Virus genome (UHGV): UHGV-1968440
Reading direction: 5' to 3' (one strand)
DNA: 14,431 nt
Source: a virus
In this document: positions 1 to 10,599 of the stretch, piece after piece
Position numbering within the stretch: the stretch's first letter is position 1
Layout of the letters: each line of letters opens with the position of its first letter
The notes under the pieces: generated by a model
What the model saw: only the letters and a program-made list of their open reading frames with translations
What the model was told of the DNA's origin: nothing
Databases searched by the model: none
Made by a program: the position numbers and the translations under genes

Positions 1-57
1 GGTATCCGTTCTGCTGAAGTGTCATGGCGTTGATTTTACGGTGACTCTTCGACAGTG

Positions 58-83
58 AAAAGAAAAAAGGCCGCAGAGCGGCC
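58..83 (-). terminator. Rho-independent terminator closing the leftward int-cargo operon
   Basis: 6-bp GC stem ggccgc/gcggcc (69..83) with 3-nt loop; on the minus strand it is followed by TTTTTTCTTTT (plus-strand A-tract 58..68); lies ~125 bp downstream of the stop of the 209..646 gene. Confidence 0.6.
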
Positions 84-208
84 ATAAACACAAGTAAAAA
101 TCAATAAGTTAGATAATTATCAAAGGCTTACAGACACACAAAAACACAGCCAACCACAACAAATAACAGGGATGTGGTCACTTTGTGGATCATATCGCCG
201 CCATAAAT

Positions 209-646
209 TTACTTAATAACAGTAACCACAGCCACAAGCACAGCCATCGCAGACAGGACAATACCTGTGAGTAACCAAGTCTGATTTGCAAATGATTTCT
301 GAAGTTCAGTACGATGCTCAGCCATCTCAACTTTCAGAGACTGGCGTAAATCAGCCATCTCAGACTTCAGGGATTGGCGCGATTCTGCCATCTCAAGCCT
401 CAACCCTTCGCGAATCTCCAGTACATCAGATTTGGTAGCAAAGGATTCGCTTCTTGTGGTGAGAGTAATCAGGTTGTTTTTGATTTCAGTCACATCACTT
501 TCCAGGCAACTGACCCGCCGTTCAAGGTCGTCATTCATGCCATCACCTCCATCATTACCACTTCCTGTTACTTGGTTGTTGGATACATTATAGGCATTCT
601 CTTTCTTTTTTCTGAACCGCGAAATATGTGCAACATTCTCTGCCAT
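209..646 (-). CDS. Hypothetical coiled-coil, C-terminally membrane-anchored protein (prophage cargo downstream of int)
   Basis: Track ORF 209..649; ATG at 644..646 is the likely start (the GTG at 647..649 is the track start). Translation has three tandem ~11-residue repeats (LRLEMAESRQS / LKSEMADLRQS / LKVEMAEHRTE) and a hydrophobic C-terminal segment WLLTGIVLSAMAVLVAVVTVIK. Start overlaps the stop of the upstream gene (TGATG). Confidence 0.55.
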   Translation of the reverse strand: MAENVAHISRFRKKKENAYNVSNNQVTGSGNDGGDGMNDDLERRVSCLESDVTEIKNNLITLTTRSESFATKSDVLEIREGLRLEMAESRQSLKSEMADLRQSLKVEMAEHRTELQKSFANQTWLLTGIVLSAMAVLVAVVTVIK

Positions 647-1008
647 CACTTCTCATCACCCTGCTTGCCTACCCAGTTCATAAAGGCCCGGGCCGAGTAA
701 CGATGAACAAACCCACATCTGTTACAGGTAAGTCGGAATTCATAGTTATGGATATTTTCCCGATCATGTCCCTCATATCCCGGATACCCAGTAAATGGAC
801 CGATATAATCAAGCATAACAAGAGTGCCTAAATCACACTCCTCAGCAGTTTTCGGCTCAGACCCCACCTCAACAATATTCGTCAAATACATGTACATATC
901 CGTATCGCCACACGACAAACATTTTTCATTCGTAGACGACTCATTGAGAAAACGCGCAAAATTATCGAGCGTTGCCATTCTTTTAAGTTCATCTATATCA
1001 AACTTCAC
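646..1008 (-). CDS. Hypothetical Cys-rich protein (possible zinc ribbon), co-transcribed with int
   Basis: Track ORF 646..1008; GTG start preceded by a strong SD AGGAGGTG (reverse complement of 1016..1023) placed inside the int 3' end; two Cys pairs (CLSCG and CNRCG); starts 2 nt after the int stop. Confidence 0.55.
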   Translation of the reverse strand: MKFDIDELKRMATLDNFARFLNESSTNEKCLSCGDTDMYMYLTNIVEVGSEPKTAEECDLGTLVMLDYIGPFTGYPGYEGHDRENIHNYEFRLTCNRCGFVHRYSARAFMNWVGKQGDEK

Positions 1009-2442: not shown

Positions 2443-2721
2443 ATGGCAAAAGTCCTGAACACACACGAACAGGCAGACTTTGAGCGTTTAGCAGCGTTCT
2501 ATCCCTACCGCGATGAGCATGGGTTACCAGTACTTGAAGAAAGCCTGAAAGATTACGCAAAGCGTACCAACCAAGCTGTTAACACAGTGAAAAGACAGGC
2601 TGACAGAGGTTCAATTCCCATCAACCAGGATGAAAAGAACTCAAGACGCACAGTAAATCTCTTCGCTCTTTTCCTGAAAACAATCAGGAGCGCAGAAAAA
2701 TACGTGCAGATGACAAAATAA
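2443..2721 (+). CDS. Cox/Apl-like small DNA-binding protein (excisionase / early regulator), putative
   Basis: 92-aa ORF, first gene of the rightward early operon. Segment YAKRTNQAVNTVKRQADRGSIP fits the AlpA/Cox-type HTH pattern. Position is equivalent to P2 cox. Confidence 0.6.
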   Translation: MAKVLNTHEQADFERLAAFYPYRDEHGLPVLEESLKDYAKRTNQAVNTVKRQADRGSIPINQDEKNSRRTVNLFALFLKTIRSAEKYVQMTK

Positions 2722-2735
2722 CGAGGTGTCATTTT

Positions 2736-3074
2736 ATGCTGAAGCAACGCCGTAATTTTCGTACCGGAACAGAACGCCACGCTAACCGTTTCACTACCAG
2801 TGCATCACGCAGCAACTCTCGCTACAGCCTGAGTGATACACACGCAACGCCGGATGGCTACCCAGTAAAACAAATCGGCGAGCACGCCTGGCTGATTGAG
2901 AAAGCTGGAATCGTGATCCACAAATGCCCACGCAATCCGTTTACCGGAAACCGCATTTTTGCATTGAGCTGTGGCGACAATCAGTTCGGGCAGGATTTCA
3001 CATTATACGAAGCACTTCGCACGGTTGATCGTCTGCTTCGCGGGCAAAGTTTTATTAAACAGGCTGATTTATAA
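2736..3074 (+). CDS. Hypothetical early protein
   Basis: 112-aa ORF; SD GAGGTG at 2724..2729, 6 nt before the ATG; begins 15 nt after the Cox-like stop. Confidence 0.6.
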   Translation: MLKQRRNFRTGTERHANRFTTSASRSNSRYSLSDTHATPDGYPVKQIGEHAWLIEKAGIVIHKCPRNPFTGNRIFALSCGDNQFGQDFTLYEALRTVDRLLRGQSFIKQADL

Positions 3075-3084
3075 CAGGCGCTTT

Positions 3085-3372
3085 ATGACCAAAGACCATG
3101 CACAAGGTGTATTTATCCGTTTTATTGATTTTCGCGGTGAACTGTTATTACGTGCATCCGCTATTGACGGAGTGACTCCGGCGGGTAAAAACGGAACCGA
3201 CGAAGCCACTTACGTTTATCTGAACGGCACGCGACTGCTTGTGGAACTTCCGTACCAGACCGTACGAGAAATCATTAGCGAAGCTGAAAAGGCACGCCAG
3301 GTTAATGCCGATGAACCCTATATCGAAATTATTTGTATGGATTCAGAAGCTGAAATACAGAAAGCAGATTAA
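3085..3372 (+). CDS. Hypothetical early protein
   Basis: Track ORF 2971..3372 overlaps the previous gene; in-frame ATG at 3085 (MTKDHAQGVF...) starts 11 nt after the upstream stop, giving ~95 aa. Confidence 0.5.
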   Translation: MTKDHAQGVFIRFIDFRGELLLRASAIDGVTPAGKNGTDEATYVYLNGTRLLVELPYQTVREIISEAEKARQVNADEPYIEIICMDSEAEIQKAD

Positions 3373-3383
3373 AGGGCGTTGTG

Positions 3384-3626
3384 ATGGGCAAAGAATATAA
3401 AACTCTCATTAACAAAGCACTTGAGCGTTTTTATTTTCGCTTAAGTGCATCAGGCGCTCATGCTGAACGTGCGGCCCGTGACTCATTGACCAGAGCAATC
3501 CGAAGTCTGTATGACGTGGCTTTTTACGCTGATGATCTGGATGCACTTAACGAACTTTCCGAGCTGATCTGTGCCGCAGAATGCGGGGAACATATTGAAC
3601 CGTATAAGTTGGGAAATATCGCATGA
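3384..3626 (+). CDS. Hypothetical early protein
   Basis: Track ORF 3381..3626; ATG at 3384 with AAAGGG 7 nt upstream; ~80 aa. Confidence 0.5.
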   Translation: MGKEYKTLINKALERFYFRLSASGAHAERAARDSLTRAIRSLYDVAFYADDLDALNELSELICAAECGEHIEPYKLGNIA

Positions 3627-3736
3627 GTATATTTATCTCATGGCTTGTTCTGATTATTTCGGTGGTCTGCGCCATTGGGATTATGCGAATTATTAATTCA
3701 GTGAAAAAGATCGAGCGTTTTTTCTCTGATGAATAA
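3623..3736 (+). CDS. Small hydrophobic membrane peptide (37 aa)
   Basis: Hand-translated (below the track size cutoff): MSIFISWLVLIISVVCAIGIMRIINSVKKIERFFSDE. ATG overlaps the upstream TGA (ATGA). One predicted transmembrane helix followed by a basic tail. Confidence 0.4.
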   Translation: MSIFISWLVLIISVVCAIGIMRIINSVKKIERFFSDE

Positions 3737-3828
3737 CGATACAAATAAAACATCAAATTAAATAAGAAAACGTGAAAACCATCCGTATTAATGGAGGTAT
3801 TCGCACGCGTAAATAACGGAGATATAAA

Positions 3829-4245
3829 ATGAAAGCAAAAGAAGAAGGCATTATCGACACATTTAAAAAAATATCAGAAGCGGAAGATGAAATGGCTAAA
3901 GATGCCGTGAAGCGTAGCCAACATATGGCAGCACTTCACGCACTGACCATTGCAAAAATCACCGCTGACGCAGCCAAAATTATTGAGGAACAGGGCAAAG
4001 AAATCGATACTCTTAAAACACAGTCAACAGTTGCAGCCATGAATCCGTCCAGCATTGGACGCCGCATTTACATTCTTGGTTCGGCAATAATGACGCAATA
4101 CACCATTATTGCCGAACTGCACGGCAAATACCTGATAACGCCTTACCACACAAAAGAGTCAGAGCTTCTGACAAATCTCCGCCTGATAGAACGCTCTCAA
4201 GCTGTATTCATTGATGACGCGCAACGTGCCGTATTTAACGCATAG
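3829..4245 (+). CDS. Hypothetical protein in an AT-rich segment (possible moron)
   Basis: 138-aa ORF; SD GGAG at 3818..3821, 7 nt before the ATG; preceded by a ~90-bp AT-rich stretch (3738..3828). Confidence 0.6.
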   Translation: MKAKEEGIIDTFKKISEAEDEMAKDAVKRSQHMAALHALTIAKITADAAKIIEEQGKEIDTLKTQSTVAAMNPSSIGRRIYILGSAIMTQYTIIAELHGKYLITPYHTKESELLTNLRLIERSQAVFIDDAQRAVFNA

Positions 4246-4268
4246 GGTTACTGGACAAAGGGGGCGCA

Positions 4269-4472
4269 ATGGCAATTAAGCATTTTCCCGTCGTTCGCTT
4301 TACCTCCAGAGGGCGCGAATACGAGGTCGACGAACGCCTGATTACCACTATCGACAAACATCGTTCGGAAAAGGATGCACACCACATCTACCTCACTGAC
4401 GGCACTTACTTCTGCGCCACCAACGTGGCGCGAGTAAATCTTATCCGACAGGTACAGGAGCCACGCAGATGA
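4269..4472 (+). CDS. Hypothetical small protein
   Basis: 67-aa ORF with G-rich SD before the ATG; its stop overlaps the next start (ATGA). Confidence 0.5.
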   Translation: MAIKHFPVVRFTSRGREYEVDERLITTIDKHRSEKDAHHIYLTDGTYFCATNVARVNLIRQVQEPRR

Positions 4473-4735
4473 CCATTCTGGACTACATCGCTACTCATCC
4501 GGGGTGTAGCGGCGGAGAGATCGCCGCAGCACTGAATACCCCAACCACAGCCATTAATGCTGAGTTACGCCGACTTTGGCGCGGCGGCTTAGTCATCAGA
4601 ACAAACCGCAGCACAGGTGGTCGCGCTCGCAAAACAGGAGGCCAGGCTTCTTACCACGTAAACCCGATGCCGTTCGGGTGTAGCAATCCACTTACTCACA
4701 TGTTTAACCAGCTACTGAAGGAAGCCAGAGCATGA
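4469..4735 (+). CDS. Small winged-helix-like DNA-binding protein, putative
   Basis: 88-aa ORF; SD AGGAG at 4456..4460; N-terminal MTILDYIATHPGCSGGEIAAALNTP resembles a winged-HTH recognition segment; ATGA overlap with both neighbours. Confidence 0.5.
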   Translation: MTILDYIATHPGCSGGEIAAALNTPTTAINAELRRLWRGGLVIRTNRSTGGRARKTGGQASYHVNPMPFGCSNPLTHMFNQLLKEARA

Positions 4736-5031
4736 GCACCATCAACCACCAGAAGCTACGCGAACTGGCATTTGCCCTGCAACGAATGGCAACGCCTCAA
4801 AAATTACTGGCATTTCGCGCAATGCTCTCGCCGTCTGCTGTGCTGGCACTGCTGAATGAGCTGGAGCACGCCAGAACCACGGCTCCTGCCATTCGCCTGA
4901 CGCTCCATCATGAAATCGCTGATTTCTGCGCGACGTTGGAGGCGCCGGGCGAACCGGAAACGCCGGAAGCAATACAGCAAGAGCTGCTGCAACGCATTGA
5001 CAAGGTTTTTGATTTTTTTCTGAACCAGTAA
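4732..5031 (+). CDS. Hypothetical early protein
   Basis: 99-aa ORF translationally coupled to the upstream gene (ATGA at 4732..4735). Confidence 0.5.
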   Translation: MSTINHQKLRELAFALQRMATPQKLLAFRAMLSPSAVLALLNELEHARTTAPAIRLTLHHEIADFCATLEAPGEPETPEAIQQELLQRIDKVFDFFLNQ

Positions 5032-5153
5032 GAAACCAGAACATGCACACACAAAAAAACCGCTTGCCATGCCGCAATCAGTCAGGTTACATTTCCGCTG
5101 CACCTCATAAAACGGGTGCCGGGATTTCCACCCCGCTGACAACCAAAGCGCAC

Positions 5154-5174
5154 AACCGCGCCAGCGGTTTTTTT
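5154..5174 (+). terminator. Candidate intrinsic terminator inside the early region
   Basis: Stem aaccgc/gcggtt with 4-nt loop followed by a run of seven T (5168..5174), ~120 bp after the stop at 5031. Confidence 0.45.
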
Positions 5175-5353
5175 GTGCGTACCGTATCGCCACGTCTTTT
5201 TCGCACACGAATTATGGTGGGGCGTACAGGGCCGACTTCGGTCGGGCCGGGTTCTTTGGTTGCCGGTTGTGGAAACCCTGTACGTCTCACCACCCCGAGT
5301 TTTCCACCTCTGGATGGTGAGTTTTCAAAACTTACAACCAAAGAGGCCACCCC

Positions 5354-5584
5354 ATGGCAAACCGCAAACAACAGCGCGCATACGCTGCGCGTCGTCACAT
5401 CCAGACTGAAATCAACCGCAGACTTTACCGCGCATCACGCGTCGCTCGTATCATGTTCATCAACATGTCACATGAGCACAGCCACGTGCTGTCAAACGCC
5501 TACTCCGCCGCAGTATTTAGCTATCTGGCGGATGATCTGCGCGAGCTTCAGCAGCTCATCGAGCAGCAAAACAAACCCCATTAA
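5354..5584 (+). CDS. Hypothetical small basic protein
   Basis: 76-aa ORF; SD AAGAGG at 5341..5346, 7 nt before the ATG. Confidence 0.55.
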   Translation: MANRKQQRAYAARRHIQTEINRRLYRASRVARIMFINMSHEHSHVLSNAYSAAVFSYLADDLRELQQLIEQQNKPH

Positions 5585-5656
5585 TTCCTGTTCCGGGCCT
5601 TTCCTGCACCTTGCGGCGGGAGGCCTTCGCACATCTGTAGTAAAGAGAATTGCAGC

Positions 5657-6046
5657 ATGATTGACGCTCATGACTTCACAAGATGGGTGCGCACACAGGA
5701 CACCCGTCTGGCTCCCGTTCTTCAGGGATTATTTGATCTCTACATCCGTGGTCGTGACAACAGAGCACGCACCACAAAACCGGAGAATGCAGACACCCTT
5801 TATTTCACAGTAGACGACTGCTACCGCGTGGACTTCACACCACACGGGCTGGCGTTGCACTGCCTGACACCACACGGAGAATCACTGCTGGCGTATTACG
5901 ACTCCCCGACCTCCGTATTTGCGGCAATGCTGGCGCATCGCACTGCTGGCGGGTGTGCCTCGCTGAGTGAATACACCGCTGAATTTAACCGCCTTTCTGC
6001 CCTCTTCTCGCAGGAGTGGCAGCGCGTGACGGGATACCAGCCATGA
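5657..6046 (+). CDS. Hypothetical protein translationally coupled to the replication initiator gene
   Basis: 129-aa ORF; its TGA (6044..6046) overlaps the ATG (6043..6045) of the downstream large gene. Confidence 0.6.
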   Translation: MIDAHDFTRWVRTQDTRLAPVLQGLFDLYIRGRDNRARTTKPENADTLYFTVDDCYRVDFTPHGLALHCLTPHGESLLAYYDSPTSVFAAMLAHRTAGGCASLSEYTAEFNRLSALFSQEWQRVTGYQP

Positions 6047-9923: not shown

Positions 9924-10235
9924 ATGACGACACCAACCAGACGGATAAGTTTCTATCTGAAGCCCGCCGCCGTCAAGAACGAAGGAGAAGCATGCGCCTG
10001 GCTGGACAGCCTTACACCAGAAGCCCGCAAAAGCGGCCAACGCGTGGCTTTTCTGGCCGGGCTGGCACTTCTGAAGACGAATCCGGCAGAGGCTTACCGA
10101 CTGGCCGCATGGGCTGATGATGAGATGTTACCTGTGACACAAATCAGCTCAAAAAAGTTTGAAGCACAGTCTGCACCAGTGGCTAAGATAACCAGCCAGA
10201 TGGCTGGGAATATCCGGGCGTTATTTCCTGAGTAA
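9924..10235 (+). CDS. parR: ParR/StbB-like centromere-binding adaptor
   Basis: Track ORF 9789..10235 is an upstream-extended version; ATG at 9924 has SD AAGGAG (9911..9916) and follows the parM stop by 4 nt. Translation MTTPTRRISFYLKPAAVKNEGEACAWLDSLTPEARKSGQRVAFLAGLALL parallels the N-terminal region of R1 ParR as recalled (RTIAFKLNP...LDSIPQGERSRLNRAALTAGLAL). Confidence 0.75.
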   Translation: MTTPTRRISFYLKPAAVKNEGEACAWLDSLTPEARKSGQRVAFLAGLALLKTNPAEAYRLAAWADDEMLPVTQISSKKFEAQSAPVAKITSQMAGNIRALFPE

Positions 10236-10355
10236 AAGCATCTGCGCGAAAAATGCTCACGTTTATAGAGACAGTATCATTCCATTTGGCACACTTACTT
10301 CAATAATCGATCTGTTAAACAAATAGATTGTCTATTATCTATCGATTAAAACGAT

Positions 10356-10420
10356 CAATTATCTTGACAGTAATGTGCCTTTTTGTAAGATCGTTCGCAT
10401 TGTGAGCGACAAGATAATTG
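10356..10420 (+). promoter_or_regulatory. Sigma70-like promoter bracketed by 11-bp inverted repeats (operator-controlled promoter)
   Basis: TTGACA at 10364..10369, 16-bp spacer, TAAGAT at 10386..10391. Flanked by CAATTATCTTG (10356..10366) and its inverse CAAGATAATTG (10410..10420). A 15-bp palindrome AATAGATTGTCTATT (10322..10336) lies just upstream. Confidence 0.5.
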
Positions 10421-10441
10421 CGCGGCATTGTCCATGCAAAA

Positions 10442-10469
10442 CGCCCCAATAGCAGCAACTATTGGGGCG
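10442..10469. other. Perfect 11-bp stem hairpin in the leader of the 89-aa gene
   Basis: cgccccaatag / ctattggggcg with 6-nt loop. On the minus strand it is followed by TTTTG, so it could act as a leftward terminator or as an RNA/DNA structural element. Confidence 0.45.
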
Positions 10470-10599
10470 TAAAACTCGGTCGGGCTCACTTAACCTGATA
10501 TGCGTGCCTTCCGAAGTAAATCAAAATGTGCGTCGTATATTTTATTGCTTACACGCACCTCTGTAAAGGCACGCATATTTTTCCTATGAGGTAAATAAA

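What the first reader, a model, noticed from the sequence alone, without database searches (positions are those of the whole stretch)
3623..4245. AT-rich insert with a 37-aa membrane peptide and a 138-aa orphan gene in the early operon
The segment from about 3640 to 3830 is visibly more AT-rich than its surroundings. It carries a one-helix hydrophobic peptide overlapping the upstream stop (ATGA) and then a gene with its own ribosome-binding site and an AT-rich putative promoter. The compositional shift suggests a separately acquired moron; small membrane peptides of this kind are often toxic or exclusion-related.
Basis: seen in the sequence. Interest (0 to 1): 0.35.

Follow-up and report, generated by a model that had tools for sequence, protein, structure and literature searches.

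The report
Conserved phage membrane peptide plus swappable early gene
In this P2-like (P88-type) E. coli prophage, the AT-rich patch holds a conserved 37-residue membrane peptide gene followed by a slot that is empty or holds different small genes in related phages; both genes are already annotated as hypothetical proteins and neither has a known function.

Summary
GC falls to 0.34 at 3640-3830, the lowest stretch of the window. A 37-aa single-helix ORF (3623-3736) overlaps the upstream stop (ATGA). A 138-aa ORF (3829-4245) has its own GGAG.

The AT-rich part, meaning the peptide gene and the A-rich spacer, is conserved backbone. It is present in all 14 P88-like phage records and in 88 loci compared, including phages that lack the 138-aa gene. 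The peptide gene's low GC comes from its hydrophobic codons; its GC3 is normal. It is under purifying selection (pN/pS about 0.2), and a diverged lineage has a positional counterpart.

Only the 138-aa gene is accessory. It sits in a ~446-nt cassette (about 3810-4262) in a slot with at least three states: empty, an 87-aa gene, or a 136/138-aa gene. The cassette's GC is ordinary (0.44). No promoter or terminator of its own was found, so it is not a textbook moron.

The 138-aa protein is not an orphan (phrog_9338), but it is confined to P88-type prophages of Escherichia and close relatives. It models as a helical hairpin plus a small SH3-like barrel. Function is unknown for both genes. Interest is low to moderate.

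The parts
3384..3626 (+). DUF4754 gene (80 aa from ATG 3384, as PGAP annotates it). It is the upstream partner, and its stop overlaps the peptide start.
   Evidence: Pfam PF15946, E 2.9e-54. Annotated by PGAP in a 99.9% identical E. coli genome. pN/pS 0.05. The AF2 model is a two-helix hairpin with pLDDT 88.8 and no significant fold match.
3623..3736 (+). Gene for a 37-aa single-pass membrane peptide, translationally coupled to DUF4754 through an ATGA overlap. It is a conserved backbone gene of P88-like phages.
   Evidence: ORF and overlap. Present in all 14 P88-like phage records and in 88 of 90 loci, with residues 1-31 almost invariant. pN/pS is 0.19 for codons 1-31 and 0.26 for the full gene. 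A 47-aa TM peptide sits at the same ATGA-coupled position in the diverged lineage L094/L096. 109 protein clusters were found; every source name shown is Escherichia and 'hypothetical'.
3737..3809 (+). A-rich intergenic spacer belonging to the conserved backbone. It is present whether or not a cassette follows.
   Evidence: GC 0.315 for the whole 3737-3828 interval. Alignable in cassette-free phages. The fraction of variable columns is 0.43, close to third codon positions of DUF4754 (31 of about 80), so most of it looks near-neutral. No + strand promoter-like site.
3772..3804 (+). Possible conserved RNA hairpin at the left edge of the variable slot. The inner stem is 3782-3786 with 3791-3795, and its 3' arm overlaps an invariant GGAGG (3793-3797).
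   Evidence: The window spacer folds at -14.8 kcal/mol, z -2.3. Across 15 distinct variants, including L093/L094, 88% of cells are paired against 27-54% for slid controls, and two pairs show compensatory changes. The evidence is modest.
3810..4262 (+). Accessory cassette, a net 446-nt indel relative to P88. It carries its own SD, the 138-aa ORF, and a 3' tail that supplies the SD of the next gene.
   Evidence: Junctions from alignment A1. Distances from peptide stop to the 67-aa start codon are 83-87 nt (empty), 352 nt (87-aa allele) and 526-537 nt (136/138-aa allele).
3829..4245 (+). 138-aa gene (phrog_9338). The predicted protein is cytoplasmic: an N-terminal helical hairpin plus a C-terminal small SH3-like beta barrel.
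   Evidence: phrog_9338, E 6.9e-80. No Pfam, NCBIfam, PADLOC or PDB sequence hit. AF2 pLDDT 77.7, with helices 3-28 and 32-64 and strands between 79 and 127. Foldseek gives only weak barrel matches, E 0.003-0.1. pN/pS 0.52.
4269..4472 (+). 67-aa gene (phrog_3459). It is the conserved right flank of the slot.
   Evidence: It directly follows the spacer in cassette-free phages.

Best explanation
**Setting (shown).** The window is a P88-like (Xuanwuvirus, Peduoviridae) E. coli prophage. The finding covers two separate things in its early lytic operon.

**1. The 37-aa ORF.**
- Shown: it is a conserved backbone gene. It encodes a single-pass peptide with a hydrophobic helix at residues 3-21 and a basic or amphipathic tail. 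Its start is fused to the stop of DUF4754 (ATGA).
- Inferred: the orientation is N-out/C-in, from the distribution of positive charges.
- Inferred: it is translated by coupling with DUF4754, from the early promoter, during lytic growth or induction rather than in the repressed lysogen.
- Inferred, low confidence: it acts through specific helix-helix contacts in the inner membrane. It would either tether or partner the DUF4754 protein, or bind a host membrane protein, as part of early host takeover. Generic membrane damage seems less likely. The basis is a conserved Ser/Ala face (S6, S13, A17 in the window peptide) that persists in the 30%-identical counterpart, while the tail varies freely.

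**2. The 138-aa gene.**
- Shown: it is one allele of a multi-state accessory slot that begins just after a conserved GGAGG-containing hairpin. The slot can be empty, hold an 87-aa helical protein, or hold a 136/138-aa protein. One lineage has an extra 112-aa gene there.
- Shown: it has a ribosome-binding site but no detectable promoter or terminator.
- Inferred: it is read through from the early promoter.
- Inferred, low confidence: the variable, mosaic helical hairpin and the conserved SH3-like barrel fit a dispensable, fast-evolving early protein that binds a host or competitor target, in host takeover or counter-defence.

**3. The AT dip (shown).** It is the sum of hydrophobic codons in the peptide gene, an A-rich spacer, and Lys/Glu codons at the start of the 138-aa gene. 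It is not a mark of foreign DNA.
For: - **Identity of the element.** 85-93% nucleotide matches to P88-like phages and 99.9% to an E. coli chromosome next to btuC.
- **Backbone versus cassette.** Alignments A1 and A4, slot census, cassette-free annotated phages and prophages.
- **Frequency in E. coli.** 1300 of 5426 complete genomes carry the region, and 822 of them match with the cassette.
- **Selection.** pN/pS is 0.19-0.26 for the peptide, 0.05 for DUF4754 and 0.52 for the 138-aa gene.
- **Diverged counterpart.** L094/L096 keep a peptide, ATGA coupling and a 137-aa homologue, with DUF4754 at only 43% identity.
- **Composition.** Values by codon position.
- **No transcription signals.** No + strand promoter and no terminator around the cassette.
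- **Structure.**
- **Narrow distribution.**
- **Hairpin.**
Against: - No functional or expression data exist for either gene. The literature searches returned nothing on them.
- The promoter scan is a simple consensus match and cannot exclude a weak or non-sigma-70 promoter.
- Translational coupling and early-only expression are inferred from gene layout and from the P2 paradigm. They were not measured.
- The peptide's C-terminal tail tolerates frameshifted 45-aa and truncated 30-aa variants, so only the TM part may matter.
- Fold matches for the 138-aa protein are all weak (E >= 0.003). Its MSA is shallow (26 sequences), and only one of the five models reached pLDDT 77.7.
- Homology between the 87-aa allele and the hairpin of the 138-aa protein is unproven (hhalign probability 5.7%).
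- Hairpin covariation rests on one or two events.
- No natural DUF4754-peptide fusion was found. The long DUF4754 entries are frameshift read-throughs.
Confidence: 0.6

Rival explanations
1. The whole AT-rich block, peptide plus 138-aa gene, is one horizontally acquired moron with its own promoter. It would be expressed in the lysogen, with the peptide acting as a toxin or superinfection-exclusion factor.
For: The GC dip is real and is the lowest in the window. The 138-aa gene is indeed dispensable. Small membrane peptides are often toxic (general knowledge).
Against: The peptide gene and spacer are present in every relative and do not co-vary with the cassette. The peptide gene has normal GC3. 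The cassette GC is ordinary. There is no + strand promoter or terminator. The peptide start overlaps the upstream stop, which indicates operon expression.
Confidence: 0.05
2. The 37-aa peptide is a membrane-damaging 'kil', holin-like or type I toxin-like product. It would depolarise the inner membrane to arrest the host early in the lytic cycle.
For: Its architecture, a short N-terminus, one TM helix and a charged tail of 37 aa in all, resembles Fst-, Ldr- and Hok-type toxins (own knowledge; hydropathy). It shows purifying selection.
Against: No hit to any toxin family in Pfam, NCBIfam or PADLOC. No dedicated antisense RNA or promoter was found: the antisense promoter-like hits are at chance level, 4 found against 3.9 expected, and no Rfam family matches here. 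The gene sits inside an operon rather than in its own unit. The strict conservation of particular TM residues goes beyond what hydrophobicity alone requires.
Confidence: 0.2
3. The 37-aa ORF matters only as a translated spacer, a coupling or uORF device that delivers ribosomes towards downstream genes. Its peptide product would have no function, or the ORF may be a gene-caller artefact.
For: The ORF is very short. The tail tolerates frameshifts and truncation. No experimental evidence of the product exists.
Against: pN/pS is 0.19 over codons 1-31, with substitutions biased to third positions: 7 of 12 variable columns. A TM peptide is kept at the same position in a lineage where the nucleotide sequence has diverged, with about 30% amino-acid identity and the same conserved S/W/V/I/S/A/I columns.
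Confidence: 0.1
4. The 138-aa gene and its slot alleles are near-neutral selfish or filler DNA decaying in prophages, with no selected function.
For: pN/pS is 0.52. Frameshifted alleles exist, P0070 and P0072. The gene is absent from more than half of the IMG/VR-derived relatives.
Against: Intact full-length ORFs persist across alleles only 51-60% identical, and in the diverged L094/L096 lineage. The C-terminal half has 23 invariant columns among residues 77-138 and pN/pS 0.41, below 1. The AF2 model is a confident ordered fold for the hairpin.
Confidence: 0.15

Closest known systems
P88 gp07 'membrane protein' (YP_009113050.1) and its PGAP equivalents (WP_000021666.1, WP_000021668.1)
   Same: The same gene: 84-92% identical in most of the phage records, the same ATGA coupling to DUF4754, and the same position.
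   Different: Nothing of substance. These entries are annotation only, with no function assigned.
PHROG family phrog_9338 (unknown function), e.g. the 136-aa protein URC09553.1 of phage vB_EcoM-569R5
   Same: Full-length match, E 6.9e-80. Same slot and same flanking genes.
   Different: The window carries the 138-aa allele group, 51-60% identical to the common 136-aa group. The difference is concentrated in the N-terminal helical hairpin.
Classical phage morons (e.g. lambda bor/lom; P2 tin/old and Z/fun insertion spots; own knowledge)
   Same: A dispensable gene inserted precisely between two backbone genes of otherwise collinear phages, with alternative cargo at the same spot.
   Different: No promoter or terminator of its own was found, and composition is not deviant. 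It lies inside the early lytic operon, not at the known P2 moron spots. Expression in the lysogen is therefore not expected.
Small single-pass membrane peptides: type I toxins (Hok, Ldr, Fst, TisB) and small regulatory membrane proteins (AcrZ, MgrB, CydX); own knowledge
   Same: Size (37 aa), one TM helix and a charged C-terminal tail.
   Different: No sequence-family membership. No antisense-RNA partner was detected. It is encoded within, and coupled to, a phage operon gene.
SH3-like small beta barrels (KOW domains of Spt5/NusG, PWWP, chromo)
   Same: The C-terminal 55-60 residues of the model superpose at rmsd 2.3-3.3 A.
   Different: E-values are only 0.03-0.1 and sequence identity 9-18%. 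No motif is shared. It is a resemblance of fold class only.

Membership tests
Moron (autonomous accessory transcription unit in a phage genome) | Present in some and absent from other otherwise collinear relatives, inserted between backbone genes | tested here: met
   Met for the 138-aa cassette only: 28 of 88 loci carry it, with precise junctions. Not met for the peptide gene, which is present in all relatives.
Moron (autonomous accessory transcription unit in a phage genome) | Own promoter and terminator allowing expression from the repressed prophage | tested here: not met
   No + strand sigma-70-like site in 3737-3828 and no terminator-like site on the + strand between 3046 and 5153. A consensus scan only, so a weak promoter is not excluded.
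Moron (autonomous accessory transcription unit in a phage genome) | Base composition deviating from the flanking genome | tested here: not met
   Cassette ORF GC is 0.441 and GC3 0.42, against 0.44-0.50 and GC3 0.38-0.50 for the four genes to its left. The dip lies in the conserved peptide gene and spacer.
Type I toxin-antitoxin toxins (Hok/Ldr/Ibs/TisB/Fst-like) | Sequence membership in a described toxin family | tested here: not met
   No Pfam, NCBIfam or PADLOC hit for the 37-aa peptide beyond a sub-threshold DUF2975 match, E 0.084.
Type I toxin-antitoxin toxins (Hok/Ldr/Ibs/TisB/Fst-like) | Cognate antisense or overlapping small RNA with its own promoter | tested here: inconclusive
   No Rfam family in 3300-4300. 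One antisense promoter-like match at 3707-3680 sits within the chance expectation of 4 found against 3.9 expected.
Type I toxin-antitoxin toxins (Hok/Ldr/Ibs/TisB/Fst-like) | Toxicity or membrane depolarisation on expression | not testable with these tools
   Needs an expression experiment.
phrog_9338 (P88-like phage protein of unknown function) | Full-length profile match | tested here: met
   E 6.9e-80, residues 1-138 on profile positions 1-138.
SH3-like barrel / KOW domain proteins | Significant structural or sequence similarity, including the KOW motif | tested here: inconclusive
   Best Foldseek E is 0.03 in PDB and 0.003 in BFVD, over 55-61 aligned columns for the barrel matches. No Pfam KOW or SH3 hit.

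The most novel reading that the evidence does not exclude
DUF4754 and the ATGA-coupled membrane peptide form a conserved two-component early host-takeover module, a soluble helical protein recruited to the inner membrane by the peptide. The slot immediately downstream, bounded by a conserved GGAGG hairpin, would be a previously unrecognised hotspot in P88-type P2-like phages. There, alternative hairpin-type proteins (87 aa, 136/138 aa, +112 aa) would be exchanged as counter-defence or inter-phage competition factors.
Probability: 0.15. Interest if true: 0.5.

Novelty: new member of a known kind. Interest (0 to 1): 0.25.

Why it matters
About a quarter of complete E. coli genomes (1300 of 5426) carry this prophage region, including O157:H7 strains. 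Its early genes are therefore among the more common uncharacterised phage genes in E. coli. Separating the conserved peptide from the swappable cassette tells an experimenter what to delete and compare: natural isogenic-like phages exist with and without the cassette. If the slot proves to hold counter-defence or host-takeover factors, it would add an early-operon accessory hotspot to the ones already known in P2-like phages. As it stands, this is an ordinary pair of hypothetical phage genes with a corrected evolutionary reading.

Tried and rejected
- **Family searches.** Pfam, NCBIfam, PADLOC and PDB sequence searches of both ORFs gave nothing significant.
- **138-aa fold search.** Foldseek against PDB and BFVD gave only weak SH3-like barrel matches.
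- **DUF4754 as a lead.** AF2 plus Foldseek gave a generic helical hairpin and no match.
- **Exhaustive profile search.** The 138-aa family has only 23 representatives, with no distant relatives of known function. P0087, with a different N-terminus, comes from a 1.6-kb contig at 1.8x coverage and was not trusted.
- **Genome-contig scan.** The DUF4754 alignment found one locus, a 'Vagococcus' assembly at 98% identity. Unproductive.
- **Literature.** No paper mentions DUF4754. The Xuanwuvirus, P88 and CP-933T papers say nothing about these genes.
- **Conserved upstream mini-ORF.** I considered a mini-ORF or N-terminal extension starting at 3772, which is in frame with the downstream gene in several alleles. 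I rejected it: the 'start' is GTG, GTA, ATG, CTG or deleted among relatives, and in the window the frame is closed by TAA at 3814-3816.
- **Rosetta-stone fusions.** The 103-116-aa DUF4754 entries are frameshift read-throughs from low-quality assemblies.
- **87-aa allele versus the 138-aa hairpin.** hhalign gives a colinear 54-column alignment but probability 5.7%. Left open.
- **Ead/Ea22-like neighbour.** No relation to the 138-aa family.
- **14-nt perfect inverted repeat (4079-4117).** Perfect only in the window's own allele subgroup, so judged incidental.
- **Lipoprotein signal peptide.** By eye, the peptide has no basic N-region, and the residues before its Cys do not fit a lipobox.

Full report
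**What the window is.**
The region matches P88-like P2-type phages (Peduoviridae, genus Xuanwuvirus) at 85-93% nucleotide identity. It is 99.9% identical to a prophage next to btuC in E. coli E300082. Gene order is as follows:
- Integrase and a C-type repressor lie on the minus strand.
- On the plus strand come a Cox-like gene (2443-2721), DUF4761 (2736-3074), a hypothetical gene (3085-3372) and DUF4754 (3384-3626).
- The 37-aa ORF (3623-3736), the 138-aa ORF (3829-4245) and a 67-aa gene (4269-4472) follow.
- After these come a MarR-type wHTH gene, an Ead/Ea22-like gene, an isrK/C4 RNA region and the replication endonuclease.

The 'early operon' setting is therefore correct.

**Checking the observation.**
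- GC of 3640-3830 is 0.340, against 0.512 for the whole window. Only 0.9% of 191-nt windows are as low, and the global minimum (0.293) is at 3688-3878.
- The 37-aa ORF, its ATGA overlap with the DUF4754 stop, and the GGAG 7 nt upstream of the 138-aa ORF are all present.
- The peptide has one strongly hydrophobic segment (residues 3-21, KD 2.81). It has no basic residue before that segment and four after it, which predicts an N-out/C-in single-pass topology.
- The scan reports no + strand sigma-70-like site in the spacer and no terminator-like site near the genes. The suggested AT-rich promoter is therefore unsupported.

**What is conserved and what is inserted.**
Aligning the window with phages P88, P88_4B11, 520873, 503458, Chuche and 569R5 gives a clear answer. 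The peptide gene and the spacer up to about 3809 are shared by all of them. P88-type phages then run straight into the 67-aa gene, while the window and 569R5 carry an extra 446 nt (about 3810-4262) holding the 136/138-aa gene.

I fetched 80 further loci from IMG/VR using DUF4754 as the anchor. In 88 loci that could be scored, the distance from the peptide stop to the 67-aa start falls into three classes:

| Slot state | Distance (nt) | Loci |
|---|---|---|
| Empty | 83-87 | 51 |
| 87-aa helical ORF (phrog_21900) | 352 | 9 |
| 136/138-aa gene | 526-537 | 28 |

In complete E. coli genomes, 1300 of 5426 carry the region and 822 match with the cassette. A more diverged lineage (L094, L096; DUF4754 only 43% identical) keeps the same layout, and in both loci a 112-aa gene also follows the 137-aa homologue in the slot. 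The AT-rich part is therefore backbone. The accessory part is the 138-aa gene alone.

**Why the patch is AT-rich.**
- The peptide gene has GC of 0.34, 0.29 and 0.42 at codon positions 1, 2 and 3. The low values at positions 1 and 2 reflect Ile, Leu, Val and Phe codons. GC3 equals that of the neighbouring genes, which run 0.38-0.50.
- The spacer is A-rich (GC 0.315).
- The first 100 nt of the 138-aa gene are Lys/Glu-rich (GC 0.38).
- The cassette ORF as a whole has GC 0.441, like the genes to its left.

Composition gives no evidence for foreign origin of either ORF.

**Is the 37-aa ORF a real gene?**
- All 14 P88-like phage records encode it. Two of those records, phage 503458, carry a version only 51% identical because two indels shift its frame internally.
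- In the locus set, residues 1-31 are almost invariant, while the last six vary (FFSDE, FFTGE, FFTEE). Loss of one T in a T6 run gives a 45-aa tail variant, which many independent contigs also show. Phage Chuche has a 30-aa truncation.
- Pairwise pN/pS is 0.19 for codons 1-31 and 0.26 overall. For comparison it is 0.05 for DUF4754, and the spacer varies at about the rate of third codon positions.
- In L094/L096 a 47-aa peptide with the same ATGA coupling aligns with about 30% identity. It keeps the columns S, W, V, I, S, A, I, I.
- PGAP and the P88 authors already annotate the ORF.

I conclude that it is a genuine, selected membrane-peptide gene. Every source name returned for its clusters is an Escherichia species (E. 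coli, E. albertii or E. fergusonii), and the tblastn search also finds the ORF in the Citrobacter rodentium phage phiSM.

**The 138-aa protein.**
- It belongs to phrog_9338 and has 74 homologous clusters. An exhaustive profile search of 1.84 billion representatives finds only 23. Phage and plasmid tblastn searches find it only in P88-like elements.
- It is not an orphan, but it is taxonomically very narrow.
- The alignment shows a mosaic, highly variable N-terminal half and a conserved C-terminal half. pN/pS is 0.59 at the N-terminus, 0.41 at the C-terminus and 0.52 overall.
- AlphaFold2 (26-sequence MSA, pLDDT 77.7) gives a long helical hairpin (3-64, pLDDT above 90) and a small beta domain (79-127).
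- Foldseek matches for that domain are weak, E 0.003-0.1. They are to SH3-like barrels such as Spt5 KOW, PWWP and chromo domains, and to uncharacterised phage proteins.
- No defence, anti-defence or toxin family matches.

**How it most likely works.**

*Shown:* gene order, ATGA coupling, conservation pattern, the cassette polymorphism, and the absence of consensus promoter or terminator sites.

*Inferred from the P2 paradigm* (the C repressor shuts off the early promoter): both genes are expressed with the early operon on infection or induction.

For the peptide, specific TM residues on one helical face are strictly kept while the tail varies freely. It is also persistently coupled to DUF4754 across diverged lineages. 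This makes specific helix-helix interaction my preferred mechanism, either as a partner or anchor for DUF4754 or as a modulator of a host inner-membrane protein. Non-specific membrane damage is the main rival.

For the 138-aa protein, the variable hairpin and conserved barrel, its dispensability and its fast evolution fit an accessory early protein that binds a host or competitor target. These functional statements carry low confidence, about 0.25-0.35. The anatomical reading carries high confidence, about 0.9.

**The slot boundary.**
The left junction of all slot alleles lies just after an invariant GGAGG(T/C)AT. The surrounding 33 nt (3772-3804) can form a hairpin. Across 15 distinct variants, 88% of cells are paired against 27-54% for slid controls, and two pairs show compensatory changes. 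The loop sequence varies. I treat this as a possible RNA element or recombination anchor, not as established. An apparent upstream ORF in this stretch was rejected because its start codon is not conserved.

**Comparison with known things, and novelty.**
- Both ORFs are already annotated as hypothetical or membrane proteins, and the 138-aa gene has a PHROG family.
- The cassette behaves like a moron in its presence/absence pattern. It fails the moron's other two features, an own promoter and terminator and deviant composition.
- The peptide resembles type I toxins and small regulatory membrane proteins in architecture only.
- The papers returned by the searches say nothing about these genes.

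This is a new, uncharacterised member of known kinds: a small phage membrane peptide and an accessory early gene. Interest is low to moderate.

Noticed in passing
window 5100-5174 and 5210-5297 (+): Strong Rfam matches to isrK Hfq-binding RNA (64 bits, E 4e-12) and C4 antisense RNA (82 bits, E 3e-15). They lie inside the stretch PGAP calls a truncated 'ash family protein', upstream of a 76-aa gene at the position of P88 gp14, which RefSeq annotates as a 'derepression protein'. This looks like a P1/P7-type c4-antirepressor-style immunity module in a P2-like phage.
   Followed up: no
window 3772-3804 (+): Possible conserved hairpin at the left edge of the variable slot. Its 3' arm overlaps an invariant GGAGG about 30 nt upstream of the next gene's start. 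88% of cells are paired in 15 variants, and two pairs show compensatory changes.
   Followed up: partly
L014, L020, L031 and others (IMG/VR loci), slot between the peptide gene and the 67-aa gene: Third slot allele: an 87-aa (or 105-aa with an upstream in-frame start) all-helical ORF, phrog_21900. It aligns colinearly but insignificantly with the helical hairpin of the 138-aa family.
   Followed up: partly
L096 3387-3725 and L094 3516-3854: In the diverged lineage, the slot holds a further 112-aa gene (MEKLKYSVALMGHII...) after the 137-aa homologue.
   Followed up: no
window 4079-4092 / 4104-4117: Perfect 14-nt inverted repeat with an 11-nt loop inside the 138-aa gene. It is perfect only in the window's own allele subgroup (11 loci), has two mismatches in the sister allele and is absent from the 136-aa group. 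The frameshifted alleles P0070 and P0072 break close to it.
   Followed up: yes
window 3718-3723 (T6 run near the end of the peptide gene): Loss of one T gives a 45-aa peptide with a different tail (…ERFSLMNNDTNKTSN). The variant is seen in many independent E. coli contigs, so it is a natural allele rather than a sequencing error.
   Followed up: partly
window 2443-6046: The early operon has a compositional step near the right end of the cassette. Genes to the left (2443-3622) have GC 0.466, and genes to the right (4246-6046) have GC 0.546.
   Followed up: no
window 209-1008 (-): Two cargo genes lie between btuC and the integrase: a DUF1640-domain protein and a hypothetical protein in the PGAP annotation of the 99.9% identical genome. 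In E. coli SE11, different genes occupy this position.
   Followed up: no
L095 (NZ_JBQPOM010000071.1, 'Vagococcus sp. WN89Y'): A 226-kb contig of a Vagococcus assembly encodes a DUF4754 protein 98% identical to the E. coli one. This probably reflects contamination or mislabelling of that assembly.
   Followed up: no
window 29-225 and 10175-10474: Two other low-GC stretches in the window, below 0.38 in 191-nt windows.
   Followed up: no
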